Source: an uncultured bacterium (lineage in GTDB: Bacteria; UBP14; UBA6098; B30-G16). From it: a DNA stretch of 64,000 bases. Where the stretch lies: NCBI GenBank assembly GCA_965552135.1, contig CBEVQY010000006.1, forward strand, positions 8,713 to 72,712, given 5' to 3'. Below are positions 9,976-35,288 of the stretch, one piece after another. Every line of letters begins with the position of its first letter. Positions within the stretch are counted from its first letter, which is position 1. The position numbers were made by a program, and so were the translations under genes. Under the pieces are notes generated by a model. That model saw nothing but the letters and a program-made list of their open reading frames with translations. It made no database searches and had not been told where the DNA came from.

Positions 9976-11364
9976 ATGATTATCTGTCTTTTGTGTGCTT
10001 TTTTGGCTACGTCTGCGGCGTTTGGTGAGATAGGCTGGTGCGGAAACGTTTGGCCCTTAGATGGCTCCGAGCAGGTCGAGGGCGCTGACCTTGCGGTGTA
10101 CTTCCAGATCTGGAAGGACGGCGTGACCGACGCCGACCCATTCGCCAGGGGCGAGGGTCTTGCGGCGACGCTGTTCTACCGCCTAAGCGGCGAGACCTCG
10201 TGGAACGCCATCCCGATGCACTACAACGTCGACGTCGGCAACAACGATGAGTTTATGGCGACCATCCCCGGCTCGCTCCTTGTGGCTGGAACCGATGTGG
10301 AGGTGTACTGCGAGGGTCTCGACTCCACGGACATGACCACCTGCCAGGGCAACGACCAGAGCGGCAACCCCGCAACCGAGGACGACCCTCTCGTCTATCA
10401 CATCATATCGCCAACGTCGATCGATGTTACGGTGCACTTCTCCGTCAACATGAACGGCGTATCTGAACTGATCGAGCCCGTAAGCGTTGCCGGCACGTTT
10501 ACCGACTGGGGCACAAGCCCTGTGGAGCTCTCCGACCCCGACGAGGACGGCATATACGAAGGCGCTGTGGTCATACCTGCTGGTTCGTCGAGACATCAGG
10601 AGTACAAATACATCATGGGCACCGCCCCAAGCTACGTCTGGGAGGAGATAGGTAACCGGAGCTTCGAGGTCGACGACTCAAACCCTGATCAATACCTGCC
10701 CCTCGATTACTGGAACAACAGGAGCACGAAGCCCATTTGGGTGGTATTTCGCGTCGACATGTCCGCGGAGGAGGTGATTGACCCCTACATAGCCGGCAGT
10801 CAGCCGCCGCTTCACTGGGGCTGGGACGACGGCTGGACCGACGCCGACCGCATATACGACGACGGAACCCACATGGACGAGGTCGCCGGCGACGGTATTT
10901 ACACGACGATAATCGAGTTCCCCGCCGGAACGTACCGCGATATAGAGTATAAGTTCACCACAGACGGCACCGATAACGAGCCGTTGCCACCCTACACAAA
11001 CCACAGGTTCACCCTTACGGAGGATACCGATACGCTCTGGCTGCCCGTTGTGATCTTCGGCGTTCTGGAGGGCGTAGCGGTTGAGCGGCGCGTTCCCACA
11101 AAGCTTTTCGTGCGGAACTATCCCAATCCCTTCAACGCCTCTACGGTCATCGAGTTTGGTTTGACGGAGCCTCCTGCGCAACCCGCAAGGCTTTGCGTGT
11201 ACGACCTCGACGGCAAGCTCGTCGACGTCCTTGTGGACGGGATATCTGCCCCTGGCGTTTATCGCGTCGTTTGGGACGGCGGTGATGCCGCAGCGGGCGT
11301 GTATATATATCGCCTCGAGGGCGAGGGAATAAGTGTGGGTGGGAGGATGATCCTCGTGAAATGA
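9976..11364 (+). CDS. Secreted protein with CBM-like beta-sandwich modules and a T9SS type A C-terminal sorting domain
   Basis: Signal peptide. C-terminus YPNPFNASTVIEF...VYDLDGKLV...GVYRVVWDG...GVYIYRL matches the Por_Secre_tail pattern. Internal module DDGTHMDEVAGDGIYT...YKF resembles the C-terminal module of the GH57 gene at 19591. Confidence 0.6.
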   Translation: MIICLLCAFLATSAAFGEIGWCGNVWPLDGSEQVEGADLAVYFQIWKDGVTDADPFARGEGLAATLFYRLSGETSWNAIPMHYNVDVGNNDEFMATIPGSLLVAGTDVEVYCEGLDSTDMTTCQGNDQSGNPATEDDPLVYHIISPTSIDVTVHFSVNMNGVSELIEPVSVAGTFTDWGTSPVELSDPDEDGIYEGAVVIPAGSSRHQEYKYIMGTAPSYVWEEIGNRSFEVDDSNPDQYLPLDYWNNRSTKPIWVVFRVDMSAEEVIDPYIAGSQPPLHWGWDDGWTDADRIYDDGTHMDEVAGDGIYTTIIEFPAGTYRDIEYKFTTDGTDNEPLPPYTNHRFTLTEDTDTLWLPVVIFGVLEGVAVERRVPTKLFVRNYPNPFNASTVIEFGLTEPPAQPARLCVYDLDGKLVDVLVDGISAPGVYRVVWDGGDAAAGVYIYRLEGEGISVGGRMILVK

Positions 11365-14300: not shown

Positions 14301-14540
14301 GCCTACGACGGTCGTCTCGATGCCGATATATTCGATATGCACGGGCGCTTAATCAAAGTACTTGCGAGGAATCTGCAGGTTTCGGAGGGGAGAAATATCA
14401 ATTTAGTTTGGGATGGTCGCGGCGCTGACGGCAGGACTCAGCCGATGGGTATATATATGCTTTCGGTTCGTTTTACTTATATTTTCGAGGGAAATGAACG
14501 GATTGATAGGCGGAACGAAGCCATCGTGGTGGTGAGATGA
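11361..14540 (+). CDS. Large secreted protein with a glucodextranase-like domain and a T9SS type B C-terminal domain
   Basis: Signal peptide. DDYGPGWYQYPTDRVFVDGAFD resembles the start of a glucodextranase C-terminal-like domain. The extreme C-terminus PNPFSPNGDGLYDE...FDMHGRLIK is the type B (gliding-motility-type) CTD hallmark. The 3' approximately 350 bp are AT-richer. Confidence 0.65.
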   Translation: MRGRAIKSVFVLAAFVYAAPYNTPSVDGTINIAPDDWDADELLVDDPLGDSYWGSNNDIDDVFLTWDAQYLYLGIRFTVSDNGMVLYVESGLPGGVTDFSSARGYRGAFPRNIRFPSDCGIDLMIGSWNGEGPYVYLLADSSSTDVTSSCIVATGGGFEQEVAVPWELIYSSASGVVQAGAELRVVCVIVGGDDYGGCDAAPDNSSIDGGAGPHDINQLASVLVDADGDGIPDYEGEALSGYITFDDTLFAEPPYPQALVEVFSEASGELVASARSSSEDGSYFLAGLVAGQIYDVVASANGFAPDTAAGFVASEGVNELDFVLEPYGGSIYGVVSPSDFPTVVYARQGTTVVGFGDTTEAGSGEYEITHLPPGFFEVVAQPQSSDYLPQVVESVWVGLDSATRVDIALERAGVVREVTDATGDDYGPGWYQYPTDRVFVDGAFDIEFVKIRDLGESYQFEIGVGDIPGPSVVDWNPYYPPLNLQKIDIYIDCHRGGSRVGLPNRNVTFAATDAWDFAISADGWWVGLLASNGQDIFSNYTQNTSDVTVDADTATDRMWITVSKDALVDHMGLADTSKFDQWDFIVLMLGHDFSGVEGVRWVNSGTSNQWEFNNGADGDVDPNVIDLVVMPGLDASGQPKEPGRSQEEMLDYTIQSPVVLEAARSYDITPPTIEYEPPSELLYLSGSGGVYIEVSVDDDVAVADVRLYWRNIGDAEWHAVDMGYRERVDRFVGDIPFEQLKPDSFEMFFEAFDSAGNVAYFPQDYPDTATPCEPTYPLSTCSPDPTRVLPAVEEIDSFAERIAINTFVGEKDIKFPDGTILVFDRSAVFPDVDTIIISFAAGDAPDELGAPQAFLPELTPLGIYRRLRVSSEKGDQVFEQRATISLHYCDWSTSLGDGEPVLCVWRAGVPRWISLGGSNDAQSNSMEAMYDANGTVFLGVFYDSTLKPLDEPISNIIITPNPFSPNGDGLYDETNITFDLAYDGRLDADIFDMHGRLIKVLARNLQVSEGRNINLVWDGRGADGRTQPMGIYMLSVRFTYIFEGNERIDRRNEAIVVVR

Positions 14541-15400
14541 AGGGGCAGATATCGTTCAAATTGCTTTGCGTTCTGTTGTTTGTTGGCTCCGCTTTTGGCT
14601 CGGATCTGGATATTTACGTCAACGGTGGCACCCGCGCTGTGTCGGTGGGCAATGCGTATACGGCTTTGTGTGACGCCGCCGACGCAGTTTTCTGGAACCC
14701 GGCGCGCATGCACTCGGACAAACGGGTAAACTTTGCCGCAAACTACGCGAGGATGTACGGGGTAGGTGGATTATATAACTTTTCCTCTGCTTTTACGCTC
14801 AGTTTCTCGAAGTGGGCGTTGGGGGTAGGTTGGAACGGGAATATATTGAGCGATGTTTACGGTGAAAACGTTGTGCTTCTTGGAGTGTCGCGGTCGGTTT
14901 CGCGCTCCATTTCGCTTGGAGGAGCTGCTAAAGGCATATATATATCTGCCCCGGGTTATCTTAAATATTCTGACCCCAGCTTCAGACGCCGCTGCGTTGC
15001 GCTCACGCTAAGTCTGGCTTTGGATTGTAAGCCTCTGTATAATCTCGACTGCGCGCTTGTCCTCGATGACCTTCTGGAGCCCGAAGTCTCTCTGCTAACA
15101 TCGACTGCAGAAAAAGATAGACTCAGGCGCGAAATTAGATTGGGACTTGCGTATCACTTACAGCAATATTTAGTTCTCAGCGCCGACCTTGCCGGTGGAT
15201 TCGACATGGACGATTGGAGATTTAATATAGGTACGGAAGTCAGGTTTTTCGGGGCGCTGGCGCTCCGCAGCGGTTTTTCCAACGGTAGGTTAGGACTGGG
15301 AGTTGGACTTTTCGCGAAGAACTGGAAAGCCGACTTCGGCGTGTATTCACACCGAGTCCTTGGAAACAGATATCAGTTTTCAATAAAATTAAGACGTTGA
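14537..15400 (+). CDS. PorP/SprF-family T9SS outer-membrane protein (putative cognate partner of the type B cargo)
   Basis: Signal peptide, N-terminal ...AYTALCDAADAVFWNPA motif, 287 aa. 4-bp overlap with the upstream type B CTD gene, the arrangement seen for sprB/sprF-like pairs. Confidence 0.5.
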   Translation: MKGQISFKLLCVLLFVGSAFGSDLDIYVNGGTRAVSVGNAYTALCDAADAVFWNPARMHSDKRVNFAANYARMYGVGGLYNFSSAFTLSFSKWALGVGWNGNILSDVYGENVVLLGVSRSVSRSISLGGAAKGIYISAPGYLKYSDPSFRRRCVALTLSLALDCKPLYNLDCALVLDDLLEPEVSLLTSTAEKDRLRREIRLGLAYHLQQYLVLSADLAGGFDMDDWRFNIGTEVRFFGALALRSGFSNGRLGLGVGLFAKNWKADFGVYSHRVLGNRYQFSIKLRR

Positions 15401-15403
15401 GCT

Positions 15404-16849
15404 ATGACGCAGTTTTATAAATTAGTGGTGCTTCTGCTGCCTTTGATTTGCTACGGCGCTGTTCGGTTGGACGGTTATTTCGAGAACGTCAACCACTGCG
15501 ACTGGAATCTCCGCTGGTATATGAGTGAACCACATAACAACCTTGAGCTCCGTTTCACAGGGACGCCGGCTAAAAATATAGAGGCTTTTATTAAATTTCA
15601 CGCTGAATCCGACAAGTTTTTGAACAATAACCGCGCTTGTCGCTATACGATCTACGATATGCTTGAGATGCACGGTAAGTTTCGCTGGGACAGGGGGTTG
15701 GAGGTGGTTGTGTTCTCCCGCGAAAATCGCTTTTGGTTTCCGCAGGGGCTTATGGAGCTGGTTTCACAATGGGTGGTCAACGACGGCGGCAACGCGCAGG
15801 GCGTTCGGATAGACTTCTGGAACCTGTGGAAATTTTACGGGGTTATCATCCATAGCGATTATTCCCAGTCCTCTGGGGAGGACGCAAACATATTGCGCTG
15901 GAACCTGCCACTTTTTGATAATAAAGTGCGAATATCGTCAACGCTGGCGCGCAAGGATTGGGGAACCGAGAGCGGCAACTATAACGCCATTTACTCACTT
16001 GACGCGCACCTCTCCGTAGGCAGACTCTTGCCGTTCCTGCATCGCTTCGGGAACATAGCGCTGTGGACGGAGGTTGCAAGAAGTCACATTCCGGAGAATC
16101 CCCAGAGGAACCTGGCTTTTGCGGCGGAGGTAAGGAATATTCGCTGGGGTGGACTGGACGCGCAGTTCTCCTATCATAAGGTTCAGGAGAATTTTCGTTC
16201 ATATTTGTCGAGCGACTACGATTGGGGGCAGAAATATAATGAAGAAGGTTTTTCCGTCCAGGGAACCTATTTCTTTCCCATGAAGGCAGTGAACTTTACG
16301 TCGAAATATTCTTACTATGTATCCCCGGTCAATCGGGCATTCCCGGTATGTTCGACTAACCCAAAACGGCGTTATCAGGAGTGGTATAATGAGTTATATA
16401 TCGAGTTTATATACGATGTTAAATGTAAGATTTGGTATCGGTATTACCGTGGCTGGGACATGAATTATGACGCCTATAAAACCTACCCCTCTCTTTTTGG
16501 AGAGATATCCTTCGAGAACTATTTTGCAAAAGTTCGTTTGCAGGCAAAGTGGAAAGACATTGGCACTCCGTATGATTTGCAAGCTTTCGGCATTGAAATA
16601 AACGCTAATATCTCACGCAACTGGAAACTCTATATACGTTCGATGAATGTAAATGAAATTGCGGAGTCGAGACAAACTGTTTTCGCTCAGCTTCAATATC
16701 ACGGCTGGTCTAATACCGATTTCTTTATTGAGTTCGGTAATCCATATGATTCAGACAACGACTTAACTAACGATGACGATTTTGTCGATGTTTCTGCCAA
16801 TCACGGTATAAGCAAGCAACTGAAGACATATATTCGATTTTACTTCTAA
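15404..16849 (+). CDS. Putative outer-membrane beta-barrel protein (hypothetical)
   Basis: Signal peptide, abundant alternating aromatic residues, C-terminal ...YIRFYF (terminal Phe typical of outer-membrane beta-barrels). AT-rich codon usage, within the island. Confidence 0.45.
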   Translation: MTQFYKLVVLLLPLICYGAVRLDGYFENVNHCDWNLRWYMSEPHNNLELRFTGTPAKNIEAFIKFHAESDKFLNNNRACRYTIYDMLEMHGKFRWDRGLEVVVFSRENRFWFPQGLMELVSQWVVNDGGNAQGVRIDFWNLWKFYGVIIHSDYSQSSGEDANILRWNLPLFDNKVRISSTLARKDWGTESGNYNAIYSLDAHLSVGRLLPFLHRFGNIALWTEVARSHIPENPQRNLAFAAEVRNIRWGGLDAQFSYHKVQENFRSYLSSDYDWGQKYNEEGFSVQGTYFFPMKAVNFTSKYSYYVSPVNRAFPVCSTNPKRRYQEWYNELYIEFIYDVKCKIWYRYYRGWDMNYDAYKTYPSLFGEISFENYFAKVRLQAKWKDIGTPYDLQAFGIEINANISRNWKLYIRSMNVNEIAESRQTVFAQLQYHGWSNTDFFIEFGNPYDSDNDLTNDDDFVDVSANHGISKQLKTYIRFYF

Positions 16850-16856
16850 GGAGGCT

Positions 16857-19169
16857 TTGATGAGGCAAGATTTATATATCATATTAGTGTTCTTCATCTT
16901 CTTTTCAGCAAGCCATGCGAAATACATTGTCAAAGGCGACAGCGTTACCTTCGTTTATGCTGACTCCAGCGCGCGCGAGGTTTACGTAGCCGGAGATTTC
17001 AATAACTGGGATCCTCGCGACATTAGGCTGGAGCGTAGCGATGGCATCTTTACTATTACGATCTTCGTTTCCCCGGGGCGTCATGAGTATAAATTTATAG
17101 TCGATGGTATTTGGAAGGAGGATCCAGATAATCCCGAAACTGTTCCCGACCCGTATGGAGGCAAAAATTCCGTCTTGTGGGTCGGGCGTAGATCAAAGGA
17201 TATTGAACTGCAGTCCGTAAAGATTGGTGGTAAAGCTTTATTTACGTATTATAATCCAAGTGCACGGGAAGTATACCTTGCGGGCGAGTTCAATAATTGG
17301 AATCCCCGTCAGCTATTAATGGAGAATCACGACGGCACTTGGGAAATTAGGCTTGACTTGCCCCCGGGTGAATATGAATATAAATTTGTGGTTGACGGTG
17401 TTTGGACTGCTGATCCATTGAATCCGGTTACACGCGGTCCAATGGGAAATTCTGTCATAAAAATAAACCCCGACGGCACGGCGACATATCCTCGAGGTGC
17501 GCGCCTTTTGGCTAATTCCATTGCGTCGTCGCGGATTTTGTTCGGTGGTTTGTTTACGTCGCATCTTGTTACCTATCACGATCGTGATCTGCCGGGCGAT
17601 TATAACGGCGACGGGCGCCTAAAGCTGTATAAACCAGCGATCTTGGCGGCTGTAGATTTGAGGGTTCATATAAGTGAAGGAGTCTCTTTGACGACATCGT
17701 TTGATGTCAACGCTTTTGATGCCGAGAAGATTTACGAAGCGCACTTTCGGATCGACTCAATTGGCGCTTCATTTGAGTCGGATAATTTTAATTTACGACT
17801 TTTTTATAACATGGACGTGTTTTCCACCGACGATCCTTTGAGGGCTGTGGGTGGCATGAAGTATCCCGAACCGACTTTCGAGCCTTGCAGGTCGCTGGGG
17901 TTGGGATATGCAGGGCTTTATTTGCGGAAGCAGTGGGCTGAGGGTATCTTGCGAGGAACAGCTTTTGATATATTGTTCGCAAATCTATTCAAGGATTGGA
18001 GCTTCAGTCCGGACTCTTTTGATTTCATAAACATGCTTCGAAGACGTGCGGTGGGTTTTTGGCGCTCGGATATAATTAGCACCAGTGAACCTCGCGATTT
18101 TTCCGATTACGGCACCGATATGTTGATCGCGCGCATAACGCGCTCGTTGCAGTTTGGTAAGCTTGGTCTTACCGTGCGATTTGACAAGAATGGATGGTGG
18201 CTGCCTTTGTCAGAAATTACCTATGAAAACATTGATTCAATTTATGAAGCCTATGAGCTCCATTCCGATTGGCTGGAGCTTGGCTCGTATGAGTTAGGAA
18301 CGGGGGTTGATTTGTTAATCTCACCATTGAAAGGCTGGGATTTTTCGGGTGAGTATATGTTGTGGAGCTATCGTTCTTCTATCGATGCAGGCAATCGCGA
18401 GAACAGTGATCATACAGGGGATTCAACAATCAACATCACACTTGGCGCACAAACTGGTTATTTAGCGTCGGGGTGTGTGAATGTGAACATATATGAGCCA
18501 ATTACTATCGGTCTTACTTATTTGCTTGAACGCTATGATAGTATGGCGCGAGAAGATGTTTATATATATCCTATGTCTAACGATGGTTCTACTGGAAGGC
18601 CTACATTGGCGTACTTGCATATGCCCAACTATAATCGTTCGCGTATAGAAGGATCGCTGCGGGTGACCACAGCTGCTTTTAGCTCTGCCGTGCACATCGG
18701 TTGGGATAAGTCGACCGAATGGAATACGTTTTTTGCTGATTTGAATGGAAATTGCTCGCCTTTTCGAAGGATAAGAATTAAGAGCAAGGGTTTCTATGCC
18801 AGGGGTAATGCCAATGCGTACGATTTCTGTGACGCAGGCGGTGTTGTGAATGTACAATTTGAGATACTGCGTGATTGGGGATTGGAGTTTGATCTATTTG
18901 GTCGGTGGCTCAGAGTTCGGAGCGACACCAGCGAAAGCGTAACTGGTCTTGTTTTGGCGCCTTATTGCGCATTTTTATATGAGCCAGTTCCTCATACACG
19001 GCTTGAGATTTCATATGGGGTAAGACCCTATAATGTGATAGGTCAATATGTCGGCAGAACGGAATGGGTATACAACACAATGCGGCAGAATTCGCTGAGT
19101 TTTATTACTGCACTGCAACGTCTCGAGGCTTATCGATGTGTTAACTTGTACGCAAGCGTGAGGTTTTGA
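16857..19169 (+). CDS. Secreted protein with tandem CBM48 / AMPK-beta-type glycogen-binding domains fused to a putative outer-membrane beta-barrel
   Basis: Signal peptide. Two repeats of (F/Y)..AREVY(V/L)AG(D/E)FNNW(D/N)PR...(E/H)Y(K/E)YKF(I/V)VDG(I/V)W..DP.NP match the AMPK-beta glycogen-binding domain. The C-terminal approximately 550 aa are beta-rich and end in ...LYASVRF. Confidence 0.6.
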   Translation: MMRQDLYIILVFFIFFSASHAKYIVKGDSVTFVYADSSAREVYVAGDFNNWDPRDIRLERSDGIFTITIFVSPGRHEYKFIVDGIWKEDPDNPETVPDPYGGKNSVLWVGRRSKDIELQSVKIGGKALFTYYNPSAREVYLAGEFNNWNPRQLLMENHDGTWEIRLDLPPGEYEYKFVVDGVWTADPLNPVTRGPMGNSVIKINPDGTATYPRGARLLANSIASSRILFGGLFTSHLVTYHDRDLPGDYNGDGRLKLYKPAILAAVDLRVHISEGVSLTTSFDVNAFDAEKIYEAHFRIDSIGASFESDNFNLRLFYNMDVFSTDDPLRAVGGMKYPEPTFEPCRSLGLGYAGLYLRKQWAEGILRGTAFDILFANLFKDWSFSPDSFDFINMLRRRAVGFWRSDIISTSEPRDFSDYGTDMLIARITRSLQFGKLGLTVRFDKNGWWLPLSEITYENIDSIYEAYELHSDWLELGSYELGTGVDLLISPLKGWDFSGEYMLWSYRSSIDAGNRENSDHTGDSTINITLGAQTGYLASGCVNVNIYEPITIGLTYLLERYDSMAREDVYIYPMSNDGSTGRPTLAYLHMPNYNRSRIEGSLRVTTAAFSSAVHIGWDKSTEWNTFFADLNGNCSPFRRIRIKSKGFYARGNANAYDFCDAGGVVNVQFEILRDWGLEFDLFGRWLRVRSDTSESVTGLVLAPYCAFLYEPVPHTRLEISYGVRPYNVIGQYVGRTEWVYNTMRQNSLSFITALQRLEAYRCVNLYASVRF

Positions 19170-19171
19170 AA

Positions 19172-19573
19172 ATGGCGGAAAGAACTATGCAACTTATGGT
19201 TTGCATTTGGATTTTGTTTGTCATTTCATGTATCGGTTGTGCACATCTTATAAAAAATAGATTACCCCCACCGCATAAGGTTGATGGCGGGATACTTTTT
19301 CAATATGAAAACAAAGCCGCCCATTCCGTCAACCTTGCGGGAAACTTCAACGGCTGGTGCGGCACAAAGGAGTACGGTAGATTTGATCCGTCGATAGGTG
19401 TAATGCACGATGATGATGGGGATGGAATATGGGAAATTATTGTTCCATTGCCGCCCGGACGGTATCAATATAAATTCGTCATCGATAACGGAGCTAGTTG
19501 GGTCCTTGATCCCAATAATCCATTGACTGACTATGAAGATGGTATTGAAAACTCTCTCTTAATTGTGGAATAA
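19172..19573 (+). CDS. Small CBM48 (glycogen-binding domain) lipoprotein
   Basis: Lipobox (FVISC), then a single domain: VNLAGNFNGW...GIWEIIVPLPPGRYQYKFVIDNG.WVLDPNNP. About 134 aa. Confidence 0.6.
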   Translation: MAERTMQLMVCIWILFVISCIGCAHLIKNRLPPPHKVDGGILFQYENKAAHSVNLAGNFNGWCGTKEYGRFDPSIGVMHDDDGDGIWEIIVPLPPGRYQYKFVIDNGASWVLDPNNPLTDYEDGIENSLLIVE

Positions 19574-19590
19574 TAACATGAGGAGTCATT

Positions 19591-22167
19591 ATGATGGTAT
19601 GGAGGGATGCAAGGATGTTGTTTTGGGCGTCGTTATTGTACGTGTCTCTTCTCGTTGCGCAGCCTGTGAAACATGGTGATAATGTTCTATTTCGCTTTTG
19701 GGCTCCACAGGCTAGGATTGTTTACCTTGCTGGCGAGTTCAACAGCTGGAACCCTCGCGCGCTGCCAATGCAGAGAGACTCATCAGGTATGTGGATAGTT
19801 GAGTTGCAGCTTGAGCCCGGCGTTTATCAATATAAGTTTGTAATAGATGGAATCGATTGGCGCGAGGATCCAAATAATCCCTATAAAGTCGATGACAACT
19901 TCGGAGGTTACAATTCCGTTTTGACGATAACTGCTGATGGTGATGTTGTACTGGGAGAACTTCCATATACGGGTCCTTTGTCCGACGAATATGTGGTTAA
20001 TGGGAAGTTGTATTTAAATATAATTTGGCACCAGCATCAGCCGTTGTATCTCGATCCAGAAGATGATAAATTAATAGGTCCTTGGGTTCGTGCACACGCT
20101 ACAAAGGATTATTACGATATGGCGGCAATGCTCGAGAAATTTCCCAACGTTCACTGTACGATCAATTTAACTTCAGTTCTGTTATTCCAATTGCAGGAAT
20201 ATTATGTAAAGCGCCTAGGAGAGTGCGTTGACTTAAGTGCGAATAGAGTTGATACTGCAAAATACTGGGCGAAATGGGGTGGGCGCGTAGATCCCTGGAT
20301 CGACCTTGCGTTGAAACCTACCGAGCTTTTTACTGCGGAGGACGATGCGTACCTTTATAAAAATGCGTGGAATGCTTTTGGAATTTCGGATGTTATGATT
20401 GAACGATTTCCTGAATATAAAGCGCTGAAAGAGAAGGGCGGGAATTATAGTATTGACGAAAAGCGTCAGATCAAGTTCTGGCACTATCTTGCTTGGTTCG
20501 ATCCCGATTTTCTGCGAGGACCCGTGAAGCTCGCCACCGGTTATGTTTGCGATCTATCGGACTTAGTCGAAGAGCGAGACGGCAAATTTTATCTCCGCCA
20601 TCCGGTAACTGAAGATGATTGTAATAGAATCATTGCCGAAGTTTATAAAGTATGTGCCGCGATTATCCCGATTCATAAGAAACTAATGTACGATCCAGAC
20701 ACACATCAGGGTCAGATCGAAATTATAACAACACCGTATTATCACCCTATTCTTCCTTTAATATGTTCAACGGATATAGCTCGCGTTTGTCAACCTGGCG
20801 CGCCGCTGCCCAAGCTTTTCTCATACCCTGAAGATGCGCAAGCGCAGGTCGCTAAAGCTGTTGCATATTATAAGTCTATTTTCGGAAAGGCACCGTATGG
20901 AATGTGGCCGGCTGAAGGAGCTGTTGCAGAAAACATTTTGTCCGTGTTGGCTTTGAATAATATATTATGGATGGCAACTGGCGACGGCGTTCTTTACCGT
21001 TCTCTTCCTGGAGCTCCTTTCTACTTTCCCTATCGGGTTGACACCGACACTATCCCAGGCTTTTCGGAAAATGCCCTTGCCATTGTTTTTAGGAATACTG
21101 AGCTGTCAGACAAAATAGGGTTTAGGTATCAGCGAAAAACGGGTGAGCAAGCTGCGGATGACTTTATTCGTTCTATTATAAAATACGCTTCCCCGGACGA
21201 GGACAGGTTGCTGACGGTGATTCTCGACGGCGAGAACGCATGGGAGTGGTATCGACTTGACAATGATGGTAAACAGTTTCTTCACGCGTTATATCGTAAA
21301 TTGTCGAAGCTGACTGAGGAAGGGAAGGTTATAACGGTGACACCTATCGAGTATATAATGGGTAATCCAGCCCGAGGCGTTCCCCCTCATCCCGTAACTG
21401 CGATGCCAGAGATAGAGCCTCTTTGGCCTGGTTCGTGGATCAACGCCAACTTCGATACTTGGATCGGTGAAGACGAAGAGAATCGCGCCTGGGAGTACTT
21501 GCTTCAAACTCGGCAGGACTTGGGCACGTCTGGGATTGCGCCACCGGATCCCGCTGAAAGTTGTCCAGATGCTGGTTCGCCGGCCTACTGCAGATATATG
21601 GCGTGGGAGGAAATGTATGCGGCCGAGGGAAGCGACTGGTTCTGGTGGTATGGGCAGGACCAAGGAGCCCCCGGCGGGGACAAGCCGTTTGAACGTATAT
21701 TCTTGACTCATCTTAAAAGCGTGTATAGTTTTATGAAGGAGTGCGGTTGGAAAGGGGAGATGCCGCAGTTTGAGCCGATCCTTACCGGCCTCGCCGGTGG
21801 AGGCGGTGTTATGGCAGAGTCCAGCAAAATGGTAAAAGTTATATTTACCTGTGATGCGCGTGCGATAAATGTACCCGATGCTATATATATAGCGGGTGAA
21901 TATCCCGAGCTTGGTTCTTGGGTACCTAATAAAGTACGCATGTATGACGACGGCACTCACGGTGACGAAGTTGCAGGCGATGGGATATGGACCATAACCT
22001 TCGAGTTCCCTGTTGGCACATCCGTTCAGTATAAATATACTAACTCCGGCAAAATCGGTGTTTGGAGCCCGAGCGAGGAGTTTCCGGCGATAAATCGGAA
22101 AATATATGTTCGTGACGAAGGAAATGGCACGATGATCGTTCGAGATATTTTTGGGAAAATGGACTAA
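19591..22167 (+). CDS. Glycoside hydrolase family 57 alpha-glucan-active enzyme with N-terminal CBM48 and C-terminal CBM-like module, secreted
   Basis: Signal peptide. N-terminal CBM48 (YLAGEFNSWNP...GVYQYKFVIDGIDWREDPNNP). GH57 conserved regions IIWHQHQPLY, GQIEIITTPYYHPILPL, WPAEGAV, VILDGENAWEW, AEGSDWFWWYG. C-terminal module DDGTHGDEVAGDGIWT...YKY. Confidence 0.75.
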   Translation: MMVWRDARMLFWASLLYVSLLVAQPVKHGDNVLFRFWAPQARIVYLAGEFNSWNPRALPMQRDSSGMWIVELQLEPGVYQYKFVIDGIDWREDPNNPYKVDDNFGGYNSVLTITADGDVVLGELPYTGPLSDEYVVNGKLYLNIIWHQHQPLYLDPEDDKLIGPWVRAHATKDYYDMAAMLEKFPNVHCTINLTSVLLFQLQEYYVKRLGECVDLSANRVDTAKYWAKWGGRVDPWIDLALKPTELFTAEDDAYLYKNAWNAFGISDVMIERFPEYKALKEKGGNYSIDEKRQIKFWHYLAWFDPDFLRGPVKLATGYVCDLSDLVEERDGKFYLRHPVTEDDCNRIIAEVYKVCAAIIPIHKKLMYDPDTHQGQIEIITTPYYHPILPLICSTDIARVCQPGAPLPKLFSYPEDAQAQVAKAVAYYKSIFGKAPYGMWPAEGAVAENILSVLALNNILWMATGDGVLYRSLPGAPFYFPYRVDTDTIPGFSENALAIVFRNTELSDKIGFRYQRKTGEQAADDFIRSIIKYASPDEDRLLTVILDGENAWEWYRLDNDGKQFLHALYRKLSKLTEEGKVITVTPIEYIMGNPARGVPPHPVTAMPEIEPLWPGSWINANFDTWIGEDEENRAWEYLLQTRQDLGTSGIAPPDPAESCPDAGSPAYCRYMAWEEMYAAEGSDWFWWYGQDQGAPGGDKPFERIFLTHLKSVYSFMKECGWKGEMPQFEPILTGLAGGGGVMAESSKMVKVIFTCDARAINVPDAIYIAGEYPELGSWVPNKVRMYDDGTHGDEVAGDGIWTITFEFPVGTSVQYKYTNSGKIGVWSPSEEFPAINRKIYVRDEGNGTMIVRDIFGKMD

Positions 22168-22186
22168 CTAACCTAAGGAGGTAACA

Positions 22187-23422
22187 ATGCGTATTATAAG
22201 AATACTCCTACTTCTGACGGCAGCTTTGGCGATTTTGACGTCCTGCGGCAGGAAACAGAATAGGGTCACGACCATAACGATTTGGCACCAGATGCAAGTC
22301 GAAGGGCGCAGTGTACTTAGGAAATTATGCGATGAGTATCAAAAACTACATCCAAATGTTAAAATTGAACTTTTGTATAAAGAAACGGAGGAGCTGCGTT
22401 CAGCGTTCCAAACTGCTGCTCTGGCTGGCTCGGGACCTGAACTTGTGTATGGTCCTGCTGATCAAATTGGACCTTTTGCTAAAATGAAGATTATATTGCC
22501 TCTTGACACACTGTTCTCATCGGATACATTAAAGCATTTTGATCCTAAGTCATTAACCTACTTTGAGGGTCATCTGTATCAAATAGGTGATAGAGTCGGC
22601 AACCATTTAGCGCTAGTTTACAATAAAGGGCTTGTTTCTACCCCTCCTCAAACATCGGAAGAGCTTATTAAAATAGGTGGGCAATTAACCAAAGACATCG
22701 ACGGCGATGGACGGATAGACCAATATGCTCTTGTCTGGAATTACACTGAACCTTATTTCTTTGTTCCGTTCATAGGGGGTTTTGGAGGCTGGATTATGGA
22801 CGAAAATGCCCGTCCAACTCTGAATACACCAGCTGTCGTAAACGCATTTAAGTTTATCGTGGCGCTTCGCGACAGCTACAAGATTATTCCGAAGGAATGT
22901 GATTATGATATGGCTGATGCTCTTTTCAAGGAAGGGCGAGCTGCCATGATTATAAACGGTCCTTGGTCGTGGGGTGGATATATTAAAGCGGGGATCGATA
23001 TTGGTATTGCTCGCATTCCTAAAATGTCTGAGACTGGACTATGGCCAACACCTATGTTCTCGCCTAAAGGGTATTCAATAAACGAAAATATTTCTGCGAG
23101 CAAACTGAAGCAAGTCGTTGAGTTACTGTATTATCTCACCTCACCGCGTTCTGAGCTTGAGTTTACTAAGGTGCTCGGGACGATACCATCGAGGCTGGAG
23201 GCACAAAAGGATACGGTTGTTGTGAATAATCCGATTATAAAAGCCTCCAAGGAGCAGCTTGAGGTTTGTAAGCCTATGCCTGTTGTGCCGGAGCTGCGCG
23301 CGATCTGGGACGCGATGAGACCGGCTTATCAAGCGGTCTTAGCGGGTACGATGACCCCTGAGGATGCAGCCAAAGCTATGCAAAAAGAAGCCATTAAAAA
23401 AATAAAGGAGATGTATGAATAA
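22187..23422 (+). CDS. ABC transporter substrate-binding lipoprotein, maltose/maltodextrin-type (MalE-like)
   Basis: Lipobox LTSC and family 1 solute-binding-protein features (ITIWHQMQ..., GPWSWGGY). 411 aa. Confidence 0.8.
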   Translation: MRIIRILLLLTAALAILTSCGRKQNRVTTITIWHQMQVEGRSVLRKLCDEYQKLHPNVKIELLYKETEELRSAFQTAALAGSGPELVYGPADQIGPFAKMKIILPLDTLFSSDTLKHFDPKSLTYFEGHLYQIGDRVGNHLALVYNKGLVSTPPQTSEELIKIGGQLTKDIDGDGRIDQYALVWNYTEPYFFVPFIGGFGGWIMDENARPTLNTPAVVNAFKFIVALRDSYKIIPKECDYDMADALFKEGRAAMIINGPWSWGGYIKAGIDIGIARIPKMSETGLWPTPMFSPKGYSINENISASKLKQVVELLYYLTSPRSELEFTKVLGTIPSRLEAQKDTVVVNNPIIKASKEQLEVCKPMPVVPELRAIWDAMRPAYQAVLAGTMTPEDAAKAMQKEAIKKIKEMYE

Positions 23423-24317
23423 AATGAAGGGAAGTTTACACAAGAGCGAAGCATTTTTTAAGTATATATTCCTCACTCCAGCGCTTTTGGTTATTTTTGC
23501 CGTAGTCGTTTATCCGTTCGTATATAATATCGTGTTATCACTATCTAACATGAGCATGACCCACTTCCGCGACTGGAGGCTCGTCGGTTTTGCTCAATAT
23601 AAAAAGGTTTTTACGGAACCAATATTTTACTCTGTCTTCCTGAAAACGGTGATTTGGACGGTTGTCAACGTATTTTTCCATGTCGTCATAGGCGTTTTTT
23701 TGGCTGTTTTGCTCAACCGCAATCTTCCTGGGAAAAGCGTGTACAGAACGTTGCTTATCATTCCCTGGGCTGTTCCGCAGTATATTACTGCTCTGACCTG
23801 GCGCGGAATGTTTAACTATGAGTACGGCGCTGTCAACCTCTTCCTGTCCAAATTCCTGCATCTACCTATGATCCAATGGCTCAAACATCCGTTTTATGCT
23901 TTTGTCGCATGTATAATAACGAACGTTTGGCTTGGTTTTCCGTTTATGATGGTTATCGCCTACGGTGGGCTTCAAGCAATACCGCGCGAGCTCTACGACG
24001 CCGCTGAGGTCGATGGCGCAACTGCTTGGCAGAAGTTCTGGAAAATAACTGTGCCTTACCTTAAACCTGTTATGACGCCTGCCATTATCTTGGGCATCAT
24101 ATGGACGTTCAACAACCTGAACGTGGTCTGGCTTGTGTCGAACGGCGGAGAACCTTCAGATAAAACGCATATTCTCGTCTCATATGTATATAAAGCGGCT
24201 TTTAACCTGTATCGTTACGGCTACGCTGCGGCGTTGTCGATGGTTATATTCCTAATTCTGCTTATATTCGCTGTGCTTTTCATAAAGCAGACTAAGGCGA
24301 CGGAAAGCATATATTGA
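23415..24317 (+). CDS. Carbohydrate ABC transporter permease (MalF-like)
   Basis: Six-TM permease with EAA-type loop (GATAWQKFWKITVPYLKP). 8-bp overlap with the upstream binding-protein gene. Confidence 0.8.
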   Translation: MNKMKGSLHKSEAFFKYIFLTPALLVIFAVVVYPFVYNIVLSLSNMSMTHFRDWRLVGFAQYKKVFTEPIFYSVFLKTVIWTVVNVFFHVVIGVFLAVLLNRNLPGKSVYRTLLIIPWAVPQYITALTWRGMFNYEYGAVNLFLSKFLHLPMIQWLKHPFYAFVACIITNVWLGFPFMMVIAYGGLQAIPRELYDAAEVDGATAWQKFWKITVPYLKPVMTPAIILGIIWTFNNLNVVWLVSNGGEPSDKTHILVSYVYKAAFNLYRYGYAAALSMVIFLILLIFAVLFIKQTKATESIY

Positions 24318-25162
24318 GAGGTTCGGCCATGAAGAGGCGACGACGAATAGTAGATGCCCTTATTTATGTATTTCTAACCTGCTTTACGGCTGCAACCCTT
24401 TATCCCGTTGTGCGGGTTGTGTCGATATCGCTTCGACCTGGCGACAGACTTCTGTCCACATCGCTGCGGATAATACCCAAGGACGCGACCTTAGAGGCAT
24501 ATAGACGCCTTTTCACCGAAACACCCTTCTTGCGCTGGATGTTAAACTCCCTCATCGTCTCAGCTGCCGTAACTTTAACCGGTGTTGTGCTTGCTGCGAC
24601 CGCTGGTTATATTTTCTCTAAGCACGATTTTATTGGAAAAAAACTCAGCCTAACGGCAATTCTGACGACGCAGATGTTCCCCGCTACTATGTTGCTTCTG
24701 CCCATGTATATTATGTTGTCTAAGCTTGGGCTGATCAACAGTTACTTAGGATTGATTATAGTTTACACTGCCACAGCTCTGCCGTTTTGCATATGGCAGA
24801 TGAAGGGTTATTACGATACCATCCCAAACTCGCTCTACGAGGCTGCCATAATCGATGGGTGTTCCCACTTCCAGGCGTTTTATAAGGTTATTCTGCCCCT
24901 TGCTGCTCCAGCGCTCGTTATAACGGCTTTGTTCTCGTTTATGTCTGCGTGGTCGGAATATATTGTTGCTGCGCAGATACTACAGCAGCCCGATATGTTT
25001 ACTCTCCCCCTCGGGTTGAAGCAGTTTCAGTCCAACATGACGACGCAGTGGGGGCTTTATGCCGCTGGCGCCGTCGTTGTGTCGATTCCCGTCGTCGTGC
25101 TTTTTATAATCTTGAGCCGATGGCTCATAAGCGGCTTGACGCTTGGCAGCGTTAAGGAATAA
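24314..25162 (+). CDS. Carbohydrate ABC transporter permease (MalG-like)
   Basis: Permease with EAA motif ([25 protein letters not shown]). 4-bp overlap with the upstream permease. Confidence 0.8.
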
Positions 25163-25182
25163 AAAGCACAGCGAGGTGCAGT

Positions 25183-26238
25183 ATGGCGGAGGTCGTTCTG
25201 AAAAAGGTAAATAAAATATATCCCGGCGGCGTGCATGCCATAAAGGACGTTTCGCTCGAGGTAGAGGACGGTGAGTTTCTCGTTCTCGTCGGTCCTTCCG
25301 GGTGTGGAAAGTCGACGCTTCTTAGGCTCATCGCCGGTCTTGAGGAGGCTACGTCGGGCGAGATCATAATAGGCGGCAGGGTTGTAAACGACGTTGCGCC
25401 GAAGGACAGGGATATATCGATGGTCTTTCAGAACTACGCCCTCTACCCGCACATGACGGTCTACGAGAACATGGCGTTCGGACTTAAGATACGCAAGTTC
25501 CCGAAGGATGAGATCGACAGGCGTGTGAGGGAGGCGGCGGAGATGCTGGGTCTGACGGACCTTCTGGATCGCAAGCCCAAGGCTCTCTCCGGCGGGCAGA
25601 GGCAGCGTGTTGCGCTCGGCAGAGCCATCGTGCGAAAGCCCAAGGTGTTCTTGTTCGACGAGCCTTTGTCAAATCTCGACGCAAAGCTTAGGGTGCACAT
25701 GAGGACCGAGATAAGCAAGCTCCACCAGAGGCTTGGGACCACGATGATATACGTAACCCACGACCAGGTCGAGGCGATGACGATGGGCGACAGGATCGCC
25801 GTCCTCAAGGATGGCGTCATCCAGCAGCACGACACGCCGATGAAGCTTTACAACGATCCCGTGAACATGTTCGTTGCGGGTTTCATAGGCTCCCCCGCAA
25901 TGAACTTCATCGATGGGTCGGTTTCGGGCGAGGTCATAACGCTTGGTGAGGTCTTATTGCCGAAGCCCAGGCAGGTTGAGCCGCCCGGTGGGGAGCTTGT
26001 GGTCGGGATAAGACCGGAGCACTTCGTCGTCGATCCGGAGGCTCCGCATCTTTCCGCCGTCGTCGAGGTTGTGGAGCCTATGGGGAACGAGACCTTCATC
26101 TACTTCCAGCTCGGCGGGAGGCAGGTTGTGGCTCGCATACCCGCAAGCTACGCCGTCCGCGTGGGCGATAAAGTCCCCATCCGCATCGACACAGAGAGGA
26201 TAAAGTTCTTCGACCCCAAAACGGGTCTTAGGCTTTAG
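25183..26238 (+). CDS. Sugar ABC transporter ATP-binding protein (MalK/UgpC-like)
   Basis: Walker [11 protein letters not shown]-loop, [14 protein letters not shown] signature, Walker [11 protein letters not shown], and a C-terminal TOBE-like regulatory domain. GC-rich codon usage again. Confidence 0.9.
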
Positions 26239-35265: not shown

Positions 35266-35288
35266 GGTCAGTTTGTATCTTAGCGAAA

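What the first reader, a model, noticed from the sequence alone, without database searches (positions are those of the whole stretch)
19591..22167. Secreted GH57 enzyme carrying CBMs on both ends
All five GH57 conserved regions are visible (HQHQP; GQIEIITTPYYHPILPL; WPAEGAV; LDGENAWEW; EGSDWFWWYG).

They sit behind a signal peptide and an N-terminal CBM48. A C-terminal approximately 100-aa module (DDGTHGDEVAGDGIWT...YKYTNSG) follows, and the same module also occurs in the T9SS cargo at 9976-11364.

Most characterised GH57 enzymes are cytoplasmic archaeal or thermophile enzymes. An exported, CBM-flanked GH57 in a T9SS-bearing bacterium is uncommon.
Basis: partly seen in the sequence, partly recalled or inferred. 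Interest (0 to 1): 0.55.

Follow-up and report, generated by a model that had tools for sequence, protein, structure and literature searches.

The report
Exported starch-cutting GH57 enzyme, common type
This gene encodes an apparently active starch/glycogen-cutting enzyme with a starch-binding module at each end and an export signal, sitting in a starch-uptake operon; the description is correct, but hundreds of uncultured bacteria carry the same enzyme, so it is uncharacterised, not rare.

Summary
ORF 19591-22167 (+) encodes an 858-aa protein: a Sec-type signal peptide, CBM48, a GH57 catalytic domain and CBM20. All five GH57 conserved regions are present. The catalytic Glu442 and Asp546 are invariant in 35 homologues. 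Sequence fingerprint and predicted fold both place it in the amylopullulanase group. The nearest solved structure is Aquifex aeolicus AaApu (TM 0.85-0.89).

The C-terminal module is a true CBM20. It carries the short 'choice-of-anchor X' motif, and a related module occurs in the T9SS cargo at 9976-11364.

- The architecture is not uncommon. All 120 listed homologue clusters carry GH57+CBM20, and 111 of them the full architecture. At least 593 species-level genomes encode a relative.
- Exported GH57 amylopullulanases are well known in archaea.
- Neither this protein nor any of 34 aligned homologues has a T9SS C-terminal domain, although neighbouring genes do. It is therefore most likely periplasmic, not secreted.

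The gene lies in a tight 11-gene cluster ending in a MalEFGK-like importer. The GH57-MalE-permease linkage is conserved across phyla.

Side observations are more unusual. One is a very rare outer-membrane-barrel-like protein fused to two CBM48 modules. The other is a roughly 10-kb low-GC island covering the enzyme.

The parts
19580..19585 (+). Shine-Dalgarno-like GAGGAG, 5 nt upstream of the ATG
   Evidence: Read directly from the sequence
19591..22167 (+). Whole gene: 858-aa pre-protein, signal peptide-CBM48-GH57-CBM20
19591..19659 (+). Sec (SPase I-type) signal peptide, aa 1-23, predicted cleavage LVA|QP; no lipobox Cys
   Evidence: Hydropathy and charge layout. 32 of 35 homologues have the same layout, mostly with the A|QP junction. 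Heuristic only; no SignalP was run
19675..19938 (+). CBM48 (glycogen/starch-binding), aa 29-116; W53, K82, W89 and N108 align with AMPK beta1 W100, K126, W133 and N150
   Evidence: Pfam CBM_48 47.9 bits and AMPK1_CBM 51.6 bits; alignment to 1z0n; W53 and N108 invariant, K82 in 32 of 35
20005..21750 (+). GH57 catalytic (beta/alpha)7-barrel, an inserted subdomain (aa ~217-359) and the C-terminal helical bundle, aa 139-720
   Evidence: Pfam PF03065 E 9e-57; phmmer to AaApu E 5e-48; AF2 model pLDDT 85.8; Foldseek TM(target) 0.85-0.89 to AaApu
20914..20916 (+). Codon of Glu442, predicted catalytic nucleophile (CSR-3 WPAEGA)
   Evidence: Aligns with AaApu Glu256 (mutant-tested in PMC12106739); invariant in 35 of 35
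21226..21228 (+). Codon of Asp546, predicted acid/base catalyst (CSR-4 ILDGENAWEW)
   Evidence: Aligns with AaApu Asp352; invariant in 35 of 35
21751..21825 (+). Flexible Gly-rich linker, aa 721-745 (…LTGLAGGGGVMAESS)
   Evidence: pLDDT below 50 for aa 734-745
21826..22164 (+). CBM20 starch-binding module, aa 746-858; W777, W800, K815 and W825 conserved
   Evidence: Pfam CBM_20 E 1e-14, 54.6 bits; aligns with the CBM20s of Novamyl, maltotetraohydrolase, glucoamylase and CGTases; conservation
21937..22011 (+). 'Choice-of-anchor X' motif (RMYDDGTHGDEVAGDGIWTITFEFP) inside the CBM20, shared with ORF 9976
   Evidence: NCBIfam NF041940, 37.5 bits against a cut-off of 25, in this protein, and 36.5 bits in ORF 9976
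9976..11364 (+). First gene of the cluster: T9SS cargo with two CBM20-like modules (aa 152-234 and 250-365) and a type A CTD
   Evidence: syntenic in L003
11361..14540 (+). 1059-aa protein with a Glucodextran_C domain and a weak, sub-threshold CHU_C-type T9SS hit (19.2 bits against a cut-off of 27); a likely T9SS cargo
   Evidence: Pfam; syntenic in L003 and L013
14537..15400 (+). Weak PorV/PorQ-family outer-membrane protein
   Evidence: NCBIfam NF033709, 33 bits, below the cut-off of 90
15404..16849 (+). 481-aa exported protein of unknown family, ends …YIRFYF (beta-signal-like)
   Evidence: syntenic in L003, L013 and L032
16857..19169 (+). 770-aa protein: signal peptide, 2x CBM48, then a ~545-aa all-beta outer-membrane-barrel-like domain ending …YASVRF
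19166..19573 (+). 135-aa CBM48 lipoprotein (lipobox VISC)
   Evidence: 87% identical in L003
22187..23422 (+). MalE-like solute-binding lipoprotein (lipobox LTSC)
   Evidence: Pfam SBP_bac_8/1; NCBIfam MalE model E 4e-42, below its equivalog cut-off; N-terminus read
23415..25162 (+). Two ABC permease genes (MalF/MalG-like), 23415-24317 and 24314-25162
   Evidence: Pfam BPD_transp_1
25183..26238 (+). MalK-like ABC ATPase with OB_MalK/TOBE domains
   Evidence: Pfam

Best explanation
The gene encodes a catalytically competent, retaining alpha-glucan endo-hydrolase of the GH57 amylopullulanase group. It is exported across the inner membrane by a cleavable Sec signal peptide.

Proposed mechanism:
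- CBM48 at the N-terminus and CBM20 at the C-terminus, the latter on a flexible Gly-rich linker, hold the enzyme on starch- or glycogen-like chains.
- The GH57 core cuts alpha-1,4 bonds, and probably also alpha-1,6 bonds, using Glu442 as nucleophile and Asp546 as acid/base.
- The protein lacks a T9SS C-terminal domain and a lipobox, while the same cluster encodes T9SS-tagged cargo. It therefore most likely stays in the periplasm.
- There it trims incoming glucan chains to maltodextrins. These are captured by the adjacent lipoprotein MalE homologue and imported by the MalFGK-type transporter.
- T9SS-exported CBM proteins probably act on the polymer outside the cell first. In Ignavibacteria-type relatives a T9SS-exported GH13 amylase fills that position.

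Shown: domain architecture, active-site residues, fold, export-signal layout, operon linkage and its conservation.
Inferred: enzyme activity, dual bond specificity (about 0.5), periplasmic residence (about 0.55) and the order of steps.
For: Domains are above curated cut-offs. The five conserved regions and the motif coordinates are confirmed.

Active site: E442 and D546 align with AaApu Glu256 and Asp352. Those residues were verified by mutagenesis in AaApu, which cleaves pullulan to maltotriose and also degrades glycogen, starch and raw starch (PMC12106739). E442, D546 and all five regions are invariant in 35 sequences of 53-70% identity.

Subfamily: the fingerprint HQHQP/GQIEII/WPAEGA/ILDGENAWEW/AEGSDWFWW, with WW at logo positions 35-36, matches the amylopullulanase group (PMC6037648).

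Fold: the AF2 model has pLDDT 85.8. Its best Foldseek match is AaApu at E 1e-30 and TM(target) 0.85-0.89, against 0.60 or less for other GH57 structures. AaApu pocket residues R306, S311, D312, W449 and W451 are kept as R501, S506, D507, W683 and W685.

CBM ligand residues are conserved.

Export: the signal-peptide layout is conserved in 32 of 35, and no homologue has a CTD. In contrast, ORF 9976 passes the T9SS CTD cut-off and ORF 11361 has a weaker hit. GH13 amylases directly upstream of homologues carry T9SS CTDs.

Operon: the 11 genes are co-directional with gaps of -8 to +20 nt. GH57-MalE-permease-permease recurs in most of the 45 loci inspected, and the whole cluster is syntenic in L003 and L013.
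Against: - No biochemical data exist for any member of this clade (literature searches).
- Two AaApu secondary-pocket residues differ, invariantly across the clade (K308 to T503, C356 to A550). Alpha-1,6 activity is therefore uncertain.
- Two starch-binding modules suit an enzyme that attacks insoluble or polymeric substrate, which is more typical of surface or extracellular enzymes.
- Export beyond the outer membrane by a route without a recognisable tag (T2SS, vesicles) cannot be excluded. Only 64 kb of the genome was seen.
- The signal peptide was judged by rule of thumb, not by a trained predictor.
Confidence: 0.7

Rival explanations
1. The enzyme has the same activity but acts outside the cell. 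After Sec export it crosses the outer membrane by a route other than T9SS (type II secretion, vesicles, lysis). It then attacks starch granules or glycogen directly, and its two CBMs serve as granule anchors.
For: Tandem starch-binding modules (CBM48 and CBM20) are typical of enzymes that attack insoluble starch. AaApu degrades raw starch. The characterised archaeal GH57 amylopullulanases are extracellular.
Against: This lineage marks its extracellular proteins with T9SS CTDs: at least 7 ORFs in the window have CTD hits, and at least one lies in the same operon. Neither this protein nor any of 34 homologues has one. In relatives, the adjacent GH13 amylase carries the CTD and the GH57 does not. 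No T2SS genes were seen in the window, although the window is a small sample of the genome.
Confidence: 0.25
2. It is an exported GH57 with a different specificity: a plain alpha-amylase or maltogenic enzyme without debranching activity, or a transglycosylase (4-alpha-glucanotransferase or branching-type) that remodels glucans.
For: Two of the five residues that hydrogen-bond ligand in AaApu's secondary pocket are replaced (K to T503, C to A550). Identity to AaApu is only 26%. The authors of PMC6037648 state that fingerprint positions are 'not unambiguous'. The inserted subdomain (aa ~217-359) is larger than AaApu's non-conserved region 75-175.
Against: The conserved-region fingerprint and the WW pair fit the amylopullulanase group. 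They do not fit the FF, FW, YY or F-x pairs of non-specified amylase, maltogenic amylase, alpha-amylase or branching enzyme. Fold similarity to branching enzymes, AmyC and 4-alpha-glucanotransferase is much lower (TM 0.44-0.58). Linkage to a maltodextrin importer points to a degradative role.
Confidence: 0.3
3. It is a non-catalytic glucan-binding protein, a GH57 '-like' protein that has lost its catalytic residues.
For: [quoted passage not shown] The protein carries two binding modules.
Against: Both catalytic residues and all five conserved regions are present and invariant in 35 homologues.
Confidence: 0.02
4. It is a cytoplasmic enzyme whose apparent signal peptide is an artefact of a mis-called start codon.
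For: Many bacterial members of the amylopullulanase group in the 2018 CAZy table are short, single-domain proteins.
Against: A Shine-Dalgarno sequence lies 5 nt upstream of the ATG at 19591. The ORF opens only 17 nt after the preceding gene. The hydrophobic N-terminus and the A|QP junction recur in 32 of 35 homologues. All neighbouring genes encode envelope proteins.
Confidence: 0.03

Closest known systems
Aquifex aeolicus GH57 amylopullulanase AaApu (PDB 8ZYI, 9IHT, 9JLQ and related entries; PMC12106739)
   Same: All five GH57 conserved regions and the Glu/Asp dyad are shared (Glu256/Asp352 correspond to E442/D546). Both have the (beta/alpha)7 barrel plus helical bundle. It is the best sequence match (E 5e-48) and fold match (TM 0.85-0.89). 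The aromatic platform W449/W451 and pocket residues R306, S311 and D312 are conserved.
   Different: AaApu is a 477-aa protein consisting of the catalytic domain only, without CBMs, from a hyperthermophile. Identity is only about 26%. K308 and C356 are replaced by T503 and A550. The query has a longer inserted subdomain, a signal peptide, CBM48 and CBM20.
Extracellular archaeal GH57 amylopullulanases (Thermococcus hydrothermalis, Pyrococcus furiosus, Sulfolobus acidocaldarius)
   Same: They are exported, multi-domain GH57 enzymes of the same fingerprint group (HQHQP … AEASDWFWW). Their products are taken up by maltodextrin ABC transporters.
   Different: They are 1000-1350 aa long with other accessory domains. 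From general knowledge, these include SLH and Glucodextran_C-type regions, not CBM48 or CBM20. The archaeal envelope has no periplasm or outer membrane.
E. coli maltodextrin system (LamB, periplasmic alpha-amylase MalS, MalEFGK)
   Same: The proposed logic is the same: an outer-membrane channel, a periplasmic endo-amylase that shortens dextrins, a binding protein and an ABC importer. A MalE-like binding protein, two permeases and MalK are encoded next to the gene.
   Different: MalS is GH13_19, not GH57 (PMC10223318 abstract). Here the candidate outer-membrane proteins are unrelated to LamB, and one is fused to two CBM48 modules.
Bacteroides starch utilisation system (Sus) and other PULs
   Same: Both are FCB-group organisms. 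Both would combine surface glucan binding and degradation with periplasmic trimming. In relatives, a surface or extracellular GH13 is paired with this GH57.
   Different: Pfam and NCBIfam scans of every cluster gene found no SusC- or SusD-like model. Import uses an ABC transporter. Surface proteins are T9SS cargo, not SusDEF-type lipoproteins.

Membership tests
CAZy GH57 | Match to the family profile above the curated threshold | tested here: met
   Pfam PF03065: 193 bits against a cut-off of 21.2, aa 144-597
CAZy GH57 | Five conserved sequence regions (Zona/Janecek CSR-1 to CSR-5) | tested here: met
   HQHQP 147-151, GQIEII 374-379, WPAEGA 439-444, ILDGENAWEW 544-553, AEGSDWFWW 678-686; invariant in 35 homologues
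CAZy GH57 | Catalytic nucleophile Glu in CSR-3 and proton donor Asp in CSR-4 | tested here: met
   E442 and D546 align with AaApu Glu256 and Asp352; 35 of 35 conserved
CAZy GH57 | (beta/alpha)7-barrel followed by a helical bundle | tested here: met
   AF2 model pLDDT 85.8. Top Foldseek hits are all GH57 structures: AaApu TM 0.85-0.89, then SmApu, branching enzymes, AmyC and 4-alpha-glucanotransferase
GH57 amylopullulanase group | Sequence fingerprint of the group, including two Trp at logo positions 35-36 | tested here: met
   CSR-5 ends …DWFWW. The pattern matches entries of the amylopullulanase block of Table S1 in PMC6037648
GH57 amylopullulanase group | [quoted passage not shown] | not testable with these tools
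   This needs an enzyme assay. The indirect test is inconclusive: 3 of 5 AaApu secondary-pocket residues are kept and 2 replaced
CBM48 | Profile match above threshold and conservation of the glycogen-binding residues | tested here: met
   CBM_48 47.9 bits (cut-off 22.4) and AMPK1_CBM 51.6 bits (cut-off 26.8). W53, K82, W89 and N108 align with AMPK beta1 W100, K126, W133 and N150. The identity of those AMPK residues as ligand contacts comes from general knowledge
CBM20 | Profile match above threshold and conservation of the site-1 and site-2 aromatic residues | tested here: met
   CBM_20 54.6 bits (cut-off 23.3), covering model positions 2-90 of 97. The LGSW (W777), GIW (W800) and YKY (K815) motifs align with the CBM20 of Novamyl. 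W777, K815 and W825 are invariant. Binding itself was not tested
T9SS cargo | C-terminal sorting domain (type A TIGR04183/PF18962 or type B CHU_C) | tested here: not met
   No CTD hit in Pfam or NCBIfam. The protein ends about 5 residues after the last CBM20 strand. None of the 34 aligned homologues has a CTD
Sec/SPase I secreted pre-protein | Positively charged n-region, hydrophobic h-region, small residues at -3 and -1, no lipobox | tested here: met
   MMVWRDAR + 15 hydrophobic residues + LVA|QP; conserved in 32 of 35 homologues. Heuristic only; a trained predictor was not available
Sus-like polysaccharide utilisation locus | Adjacent SusC-like TonB-dependent transporter and SusD-like lipoprotein | tested here: not met
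   Pfam and NCBIfam scans of all 11 cluster genes found no SusC/TonB-receptor or SusD model. The barrel of ORF 16857 shows only generic fold similarity to TBDT barrels (TM 0.26-0.43) and no plug domain

The most novel reading that the evidence does not exclude
The conserved cluster 9976-26238 may be a previously undescribed, SusCD-independent alpha-glucan uptake machine of Zixibacteria-like bacteria.

Proposed steps:
- T9SS-displayed CBM20/Glucodextran_C proteins capture the polymer.
- A very rare outer-membrane barrel fused to two CBM48 modules (ORF 16857), perhaps together with ORF 15404, threads glucan chains into the periplasm.
- A CBM48 lipoprotein and the CBM-flanked GH57 hold and cut the incoming chain, acting as a ratchet-and-cut device.
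- The MalEFGK importer takes up the products.

On this reading, the two CBMs on a periplasmic enzyme keep hold of a chain that is being reeled in, not of a starch granule.
Probability: 0.2. Interest if true: 0.65.

Novelty: new member of a known kind. Interest (0 to 1): 0.35.

Why it matters
Every biochemically studied GH57 amylopullulanase I found comes from hyperthermophilic archaea or Aquifex. This gene belongs to a large, uncharacterised bacterial clade found in Ignavibacteriota/Bacteroidota, Zixibacteria, Eisenbacteria, Gemmatimonadota and Kryptonia MAGs. Public annotation mostly calls its members 'hypothetical protein' or 'CBM20 domain-containing protein', and no NCBIfam GH57 model hit it.

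Characterising one member would allow hundreds of genes to be annotated. It would show how many uncultured sediment and soil bacteria consume starch or glycogen. It might also yield a modular one-step starch-saccharifying enzyme.

The finding itself is a correct annotation and not a surprise. The system-level context is where something new may lie: the rare CBM48-fused barrel, and the pairing of a T9SS-tagged partner with an untagged GH57.

Tried and rejected
- T9SS-cargo reading of the GH57: rejected. Neither the query nor its homologues has a CTD.
- Non-catalytic '-like' protein: rejected.
- Sus-type PUL: rejected. No SusC or SusD.
- C-terminal module as CBM25, CBM26 or CBM41: not supported. 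Only CBM_20 passes its threshold. X25 and CBM53 hits are sub-threshold and fall on the N-terminal module or on neighbouring proteins.
- Inferring the donor of the low-GC island from percent identity to L003: rejected as unreliable. Per-gene identities (43-87%) track protein type. The closest MutS relatives (70-75%) are about as close as the closest GH57 relatives (68-73%).
- Retrieving the source contig, or the independent 20.9-kb Logan contig, to test the island junctions: six look-ups found nothing on record.
- Promoter and terminator scan of the cluster: uninformative. Terminator-like sites are fewer than in shuffles, and sigma-70 consensus may not apply to this lineage.
- Literature searches for a characterised CBM48-GH57-CBM20 enzyme found none. 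The library excludes most subscription journals, so absence is not proof.
Full report
**1. Observation.** The window contains an 858-aa ORF at exactly 19591..22167 on the + strand. A GAGGAG Shine-Dalgarno sequence lies 5 nt upstream of its ATG. The preceding gene ends only 17 nt before it.
- HQHQP, aa 147-151
- GQIEIITTPYYHPILPL, aa 374-390
- WPAEGAV, aa 439-445
- LDGENAWEW, aa 545-553
- EGSDWFWWYG, aa 679-688
- DDGTHGDEVAGDGIWT, aa 786-801
- YKYTNSG, aa 814-820

Pfam assigns three domains, all far above their curated cut-offs: CBM_48/AMPK1_CBM (aa 29-116), Glyco_hydro_57 (aa 144-597, E 9e-57) and CBM_20 (aa 748-843, E 1e-14).

**2. Catalytic domain.** The best match among solved structures is the Aquifex aeolicus GH57 amylopullulanase AaApu (E 5e-48).
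- Its authors list the five conserved regions (11-HMHQP, 187-GKGSV, 253-WPPEAS, 352-DGENCW, 442-LVAEGSDW).
- They show by mutagenesis that Glu256 and Asp352 are the catalytic pair.
- They show that the enzyme cuts pullulan to maltotriose and also degrades glycogen, soluble starch and raw starch (PMC12106739).

In the phmmer alignment, the query's E442 and D546 sit on Glu256 and Asp352. In an alignment of the query with 34 homologues of 53-70% identity, E442, D546 and all five conserved regions are invariant.

The combined fingerprint is HQHQP/GQIEII/WPAEGA/ILDGENAWEW/AEGSDWFWW. It matches the amylopullulanase block of Martinovicova and Janecek's table of 1602 GH57 sequences. It includes the two tryptophans at logo positions 35-36 that those authors give as the amylopullulanase mark. 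Other specificities have YY, FF, FW or F-x at those positions (PMC6037648).

**3. Structure.** An AlphaFold2 model built on that alignment is confident (mean pLDDT 85.8, pTM 0.74). Only the Gly-rich linker (aa 734-745) and one loop fall below 50. Foldseek against the PDB gives:

| Structure | TM (target-normalised) | Note |
|---|---|---|
| AaApu | 0.85-0.89 | E about 1e-30, 26% identity |
| Staphylothermus amylopullulanase | 0.60 | |
| Branching enzymes and AmyC | 0.56-0.58 | |
| 4-alpha-glucanotransferase | 0.42-0.45 | |

Of the AaApu residues described as lining the +2 subsite and the secondary pocket, R306, S311 and D312 are kept as R501, S506 and D507. K308 and C356 are replaced by T503 and A550. 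The platform tryptophans W449 and W451 are kept as W683 and W685. All of these positions are invariant in the clade. The evidence therefore supports an active endo-acting alpha-glucan hydrolase of the amylopullulanase type. Whether it also cuts alpha-1,6 bonds remains an inference.

**4. Binding modules.**
- The N-terminal module aligns with the AMPK beta1 glycogen-binding domain across the FNxW, YKF, DGxW and N motifs, giving W53, K82, W89 and N108.
- The C-terminal module aligns with the CBM20s of Novamyl, maltotetraohydrolase, glucoamylase and CGTases, including the LGxW tryptophan. W777, K815 and W825 are invariant and W800 is nearly so.
- The conspicuous DDGTHGDEVAGDGIW stretch is a known short NCBIfam domain, 'choice-of-anchor X' (NF041940). 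It is hit above cut-off both here (aa 783-807) and in ORF 9976-11364 (aa 294-320).
- The whole module is 38% identical over 122 residues to aa 250-365 of that ORF. That ORF also has a second CBM20-like module and a T9SS type A sorting domain.

**5. Export and location.** The N-terminus has two arginines, a 15-residue hydrophobic core and LVA|QP. It has no cysteine, so no lipobox. 32 of the 35 aligned proteins have the same layout, and most share the A|QP junction. The three exceptions look like truncated or mis-started gene calls.

The protein ends just after the last CBM20 strand, and so do all 34 aligned homologues. None carries a T9SS C-terminal domain. This lineage does use T9SS heavily. 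At least seven ORFs in the window have CTD hits, some below Pfam's gathering cut-off. At least one, and probably two, of them lie in the same operon. In seven of eight Ignavibacteria/Bacteroidota-type loci examined, the gene immediately upstream of the GH57 homologue is a 900-1080-aa GH13 alpha-amylase. In six of these seven, Pfam finds a T9SS CTD.

These organisms therefore tag the outer enzyme and leave the GH57 untagged. This is the main argument that the GH57 stays in the periplasm. It is an inference. A type II system or vesicle release cannot be excluded from a 64-kb sample.

**6. Genomic context.** The gene is the seventh of eleven co-directional genes (9976-26238), separated by -8 to +20 nt:
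1. A T9SS cargo with CBM20-like modules.
2. A Glucodextran_C protein with a weak, sub-threshold CHU_C-type T9SS hit.
3. A weak PorV/PorQ-like protein.
4. A 481-aa exported protein of unknown family.
5. A 770-aa protein with two CBM48 modules and a barrel-like C-terminal region.
6. A 135-aa CBM48 lipoprotein.
7. The GH57.
8. A MalE-like lipoprotein.
9. and 10. Two permeases.
11. MalK.

The whole cluster is syntenic in a hydrothermal-vent MAG (L003) and a Guaymas Zixibacteria MAG (L013), and partly in another Zixibacteria MAG (L032). GH57 followed by MalE and two permeases recurs in most of the 45 loci inspected, across several phyla. This conserved linkage supports a degradative role feeding a maltodextrin importer. 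The same logic is described for secreted archaeal GH57 amylopullulanases (PMC11046441) and, with unrelated enzymes, for the E. coli Mal system.

**7. How common it is.**
- All 120 listed clusters (at 90% identity) of 3451 significant hits carry GH57+CBM20. 111 of them carry the full CBM48/AMPK-CBM-GH57-CBM20 set, and the other 9 lack an N-terminal CBM hit or are partial.
They come from Ignavibacteriota/Bacteroidota, Zixibacteria, Eisenbacteria, Gemmatimonadota and Kryptonia MAGs.
- Among the 80 best loci, 44 have CBM48-GH57-CBM20, 28 have GH57-CBM20, 4 have CBM48-GH57 and 4 are cut by contig ends. The CBMs are therefore gained and lost within the clade.

None of these proteins appears to have been characterised. 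Four literature searches found no paper on such an enzyme (passages read). Neither the exact CSR-4 string nor Ignavibacterium or Melioribacter entries occur in the held text of the 2018 CAZy-based table. Public names are 'hypothetical protein', 'CBM20 domain-containing protein' or the generic JGI 'alpha-amylase/alpha-mannosidase (GH57 family)'.

**8. Host and compositional island.** MutS places the host in an unnamed lineage. Its nearest named relatives are Zixibacteria at 50-57% identity, and unnamed MAGs reach 70-75%. The window comes from an 80,312-bp NCBI/ENA contig.

The background is about 60% GC with GC3 of 0.69-0.78. Genes from 14537 to 25162 have GC3 of 0.40-0.56. The first two genes of the same cluster, and MalK, have host-like composition. 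The left edge is gradual, spread over about 2.5 kb. The right edge is sharper. The syntenic clusters in L003 and L013 are uniformly 48-50% GC.

This looks like replacement of the middle of the operon by DNA from a lower-GC relative. An assembly chimera between related populations is not excluded. I could not retrieve the contig or the separate 20.9-kb Logan contig that carries a near-identical gene.

**9. Side finding.** ORF 16857-19169 models as two CBM48 sandwiches followed by about 20 long antiparallel strands, and it ends in …YASVRF (pLDDT 72.5). Foldseek gives only generic similarity to large outer-membrane barrels such as TonB-dependent transporter barrels, MtrB, LptD and FimD (TM 0.26-0.43, 7-10% identity). 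The barrel part has only 15 relatives at E of 1e-3 or better among 1.84 billion representative proteins. A starch-binding module fused to a rare outer-membrane barrel, directly upstream of a periplasmic CBM48 lipoprotein and the CBM-flanked GH57, suggests a dedicated glucan-chain import route. This is the most novel reading the data allow, and it is untested.

**10. Verdict.** The finding is a correct and well-observed annotation: an intact, Sec-exported GH57 of the amylopullulanase type, flanked by CBM48 and CBM20, in a starch/maltodextrin uptake operon. It is a new, uncharacterised member of a known kind of enzyme. It is not rare, and it is probably periplasmic, not secreted. I score interest at 0.35. 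The value lies in the size of the unannotated clade and in the unusual neighbouring envelope proteins. The enzyme's existence is not itself surprising.

Noticed in passing
window 16857-19169 (+): A 770-aa protein with a signal peptide and two CBM48 modules. These are followed by a ~545-aa all-beta region that models as a large outer-membrane-type barrel and ends …YASVRF. The barrel part has no Pfam or NCBIfam family. It has only 15 relatives among 1.84 billion representative proteins. It is syntenic with the GH57 in L003, L013 and L032.
   Followed up: yes
window ~14537-25162: A low-GC island inside the 11-gene operon. GC3 is 0.40-0.56 there, against 0.69-0.78 in the flanking genes, including the operon's own first two genes and MalK. 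The left edge is gradual and the right edge sharper. Syntenic relatives are uniformly 48-50% GC. This is either recombination with a lower-GC relative or an assembly chimera; unresolved.
   Followed up: partly
window 19166-19573 (+): A 135-aa lipoprotein (lipobox VISC) that is little more than a single CBM48. It is 87% identical in L003 and is the most conserved gene of the cluster.
   Followed up: partly
window 9976-11364 and 11361-14540 (+): Two cluster proteins with T9SS CTD hits (TIGR04183 above its cut-off in the first, a sub-threshold CHU_C hit in the second) and starch-related binding modules (two CBM20-like modules with the choice-of-anchor X motif; Glucodextran_C). Neither has a recognisable catalytic domain. 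aa 1-415 of the second protein has no family hit.
   Followed up: partly
window 14537-15400 and 15404-16849 (+): A weak PorV/PorQ-like protein (33 bits against a cut-off of 90). Next to it is a 481-aa exported protein with no family hit that ends …YIRFYF, possibly a second outer-membrane protein. Both are syntenic in L003 and L013.
   Followed up: partly
L008, L012, L034, L037, L056, L057, L072 (gene directly upstream of the GH57 homologue): In Ignavibacteria/Bacteroidota-type loci, the GH57 homologue is preceded by a 900-1080-aa GH13 alpha-amylase that ends in a T9SS sorting domain. Pfam detects the sorting domain in 6 of the 7. The GH57 itself has none. L074 instead has a GlcNAc-2-epimerase-like T9SS protein.
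   Followed up: partly
window 34906-37530: A second GC dip (about 50%). It covers a 543-aa ORF with no family hit (35396-37027) and a 177-aa protein with a T9SS sorting domain (36997-37530). A divergent HTH_3 regulator lies next to them (34906-35397, minus strand).
   Followed up: no
window 27851-29848(-), 32536-34836(+), 37580-39136(-), 47261-49801(-), 49582-51600(-): A high density of T9SS-tailed proteins: InhA-like MAM, beta-helix/PMP-repeat and others. Several of the CTD hits are below Pfam's gathering cut-off. The two beta-helix ORFs overlap by about 220 nt on the same strand, so one start codon is probably mis-called.
   Followed up: no
window 19591-22167 and its homologues: No NCBIfam GH57 model hit this protein; only choice-of-anchor X and fragments of GlgB models did. 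Most public homologues are named 'hypothetical protein' or 'CBM20 domain-containing protein'. The clade is therefore systematically under-annotated.
   Followed up: no
window 56956-58483 (+): An adjacent UVR-motif protein and an ATP:guanido phosphotransferase. This is a McsA/McsB-like protein-arginine-kinase pair, better known from Firmicutes. A membrane H+-pyrophosphatase lies at 59154-61214 (minus strand).
   Followed up: no
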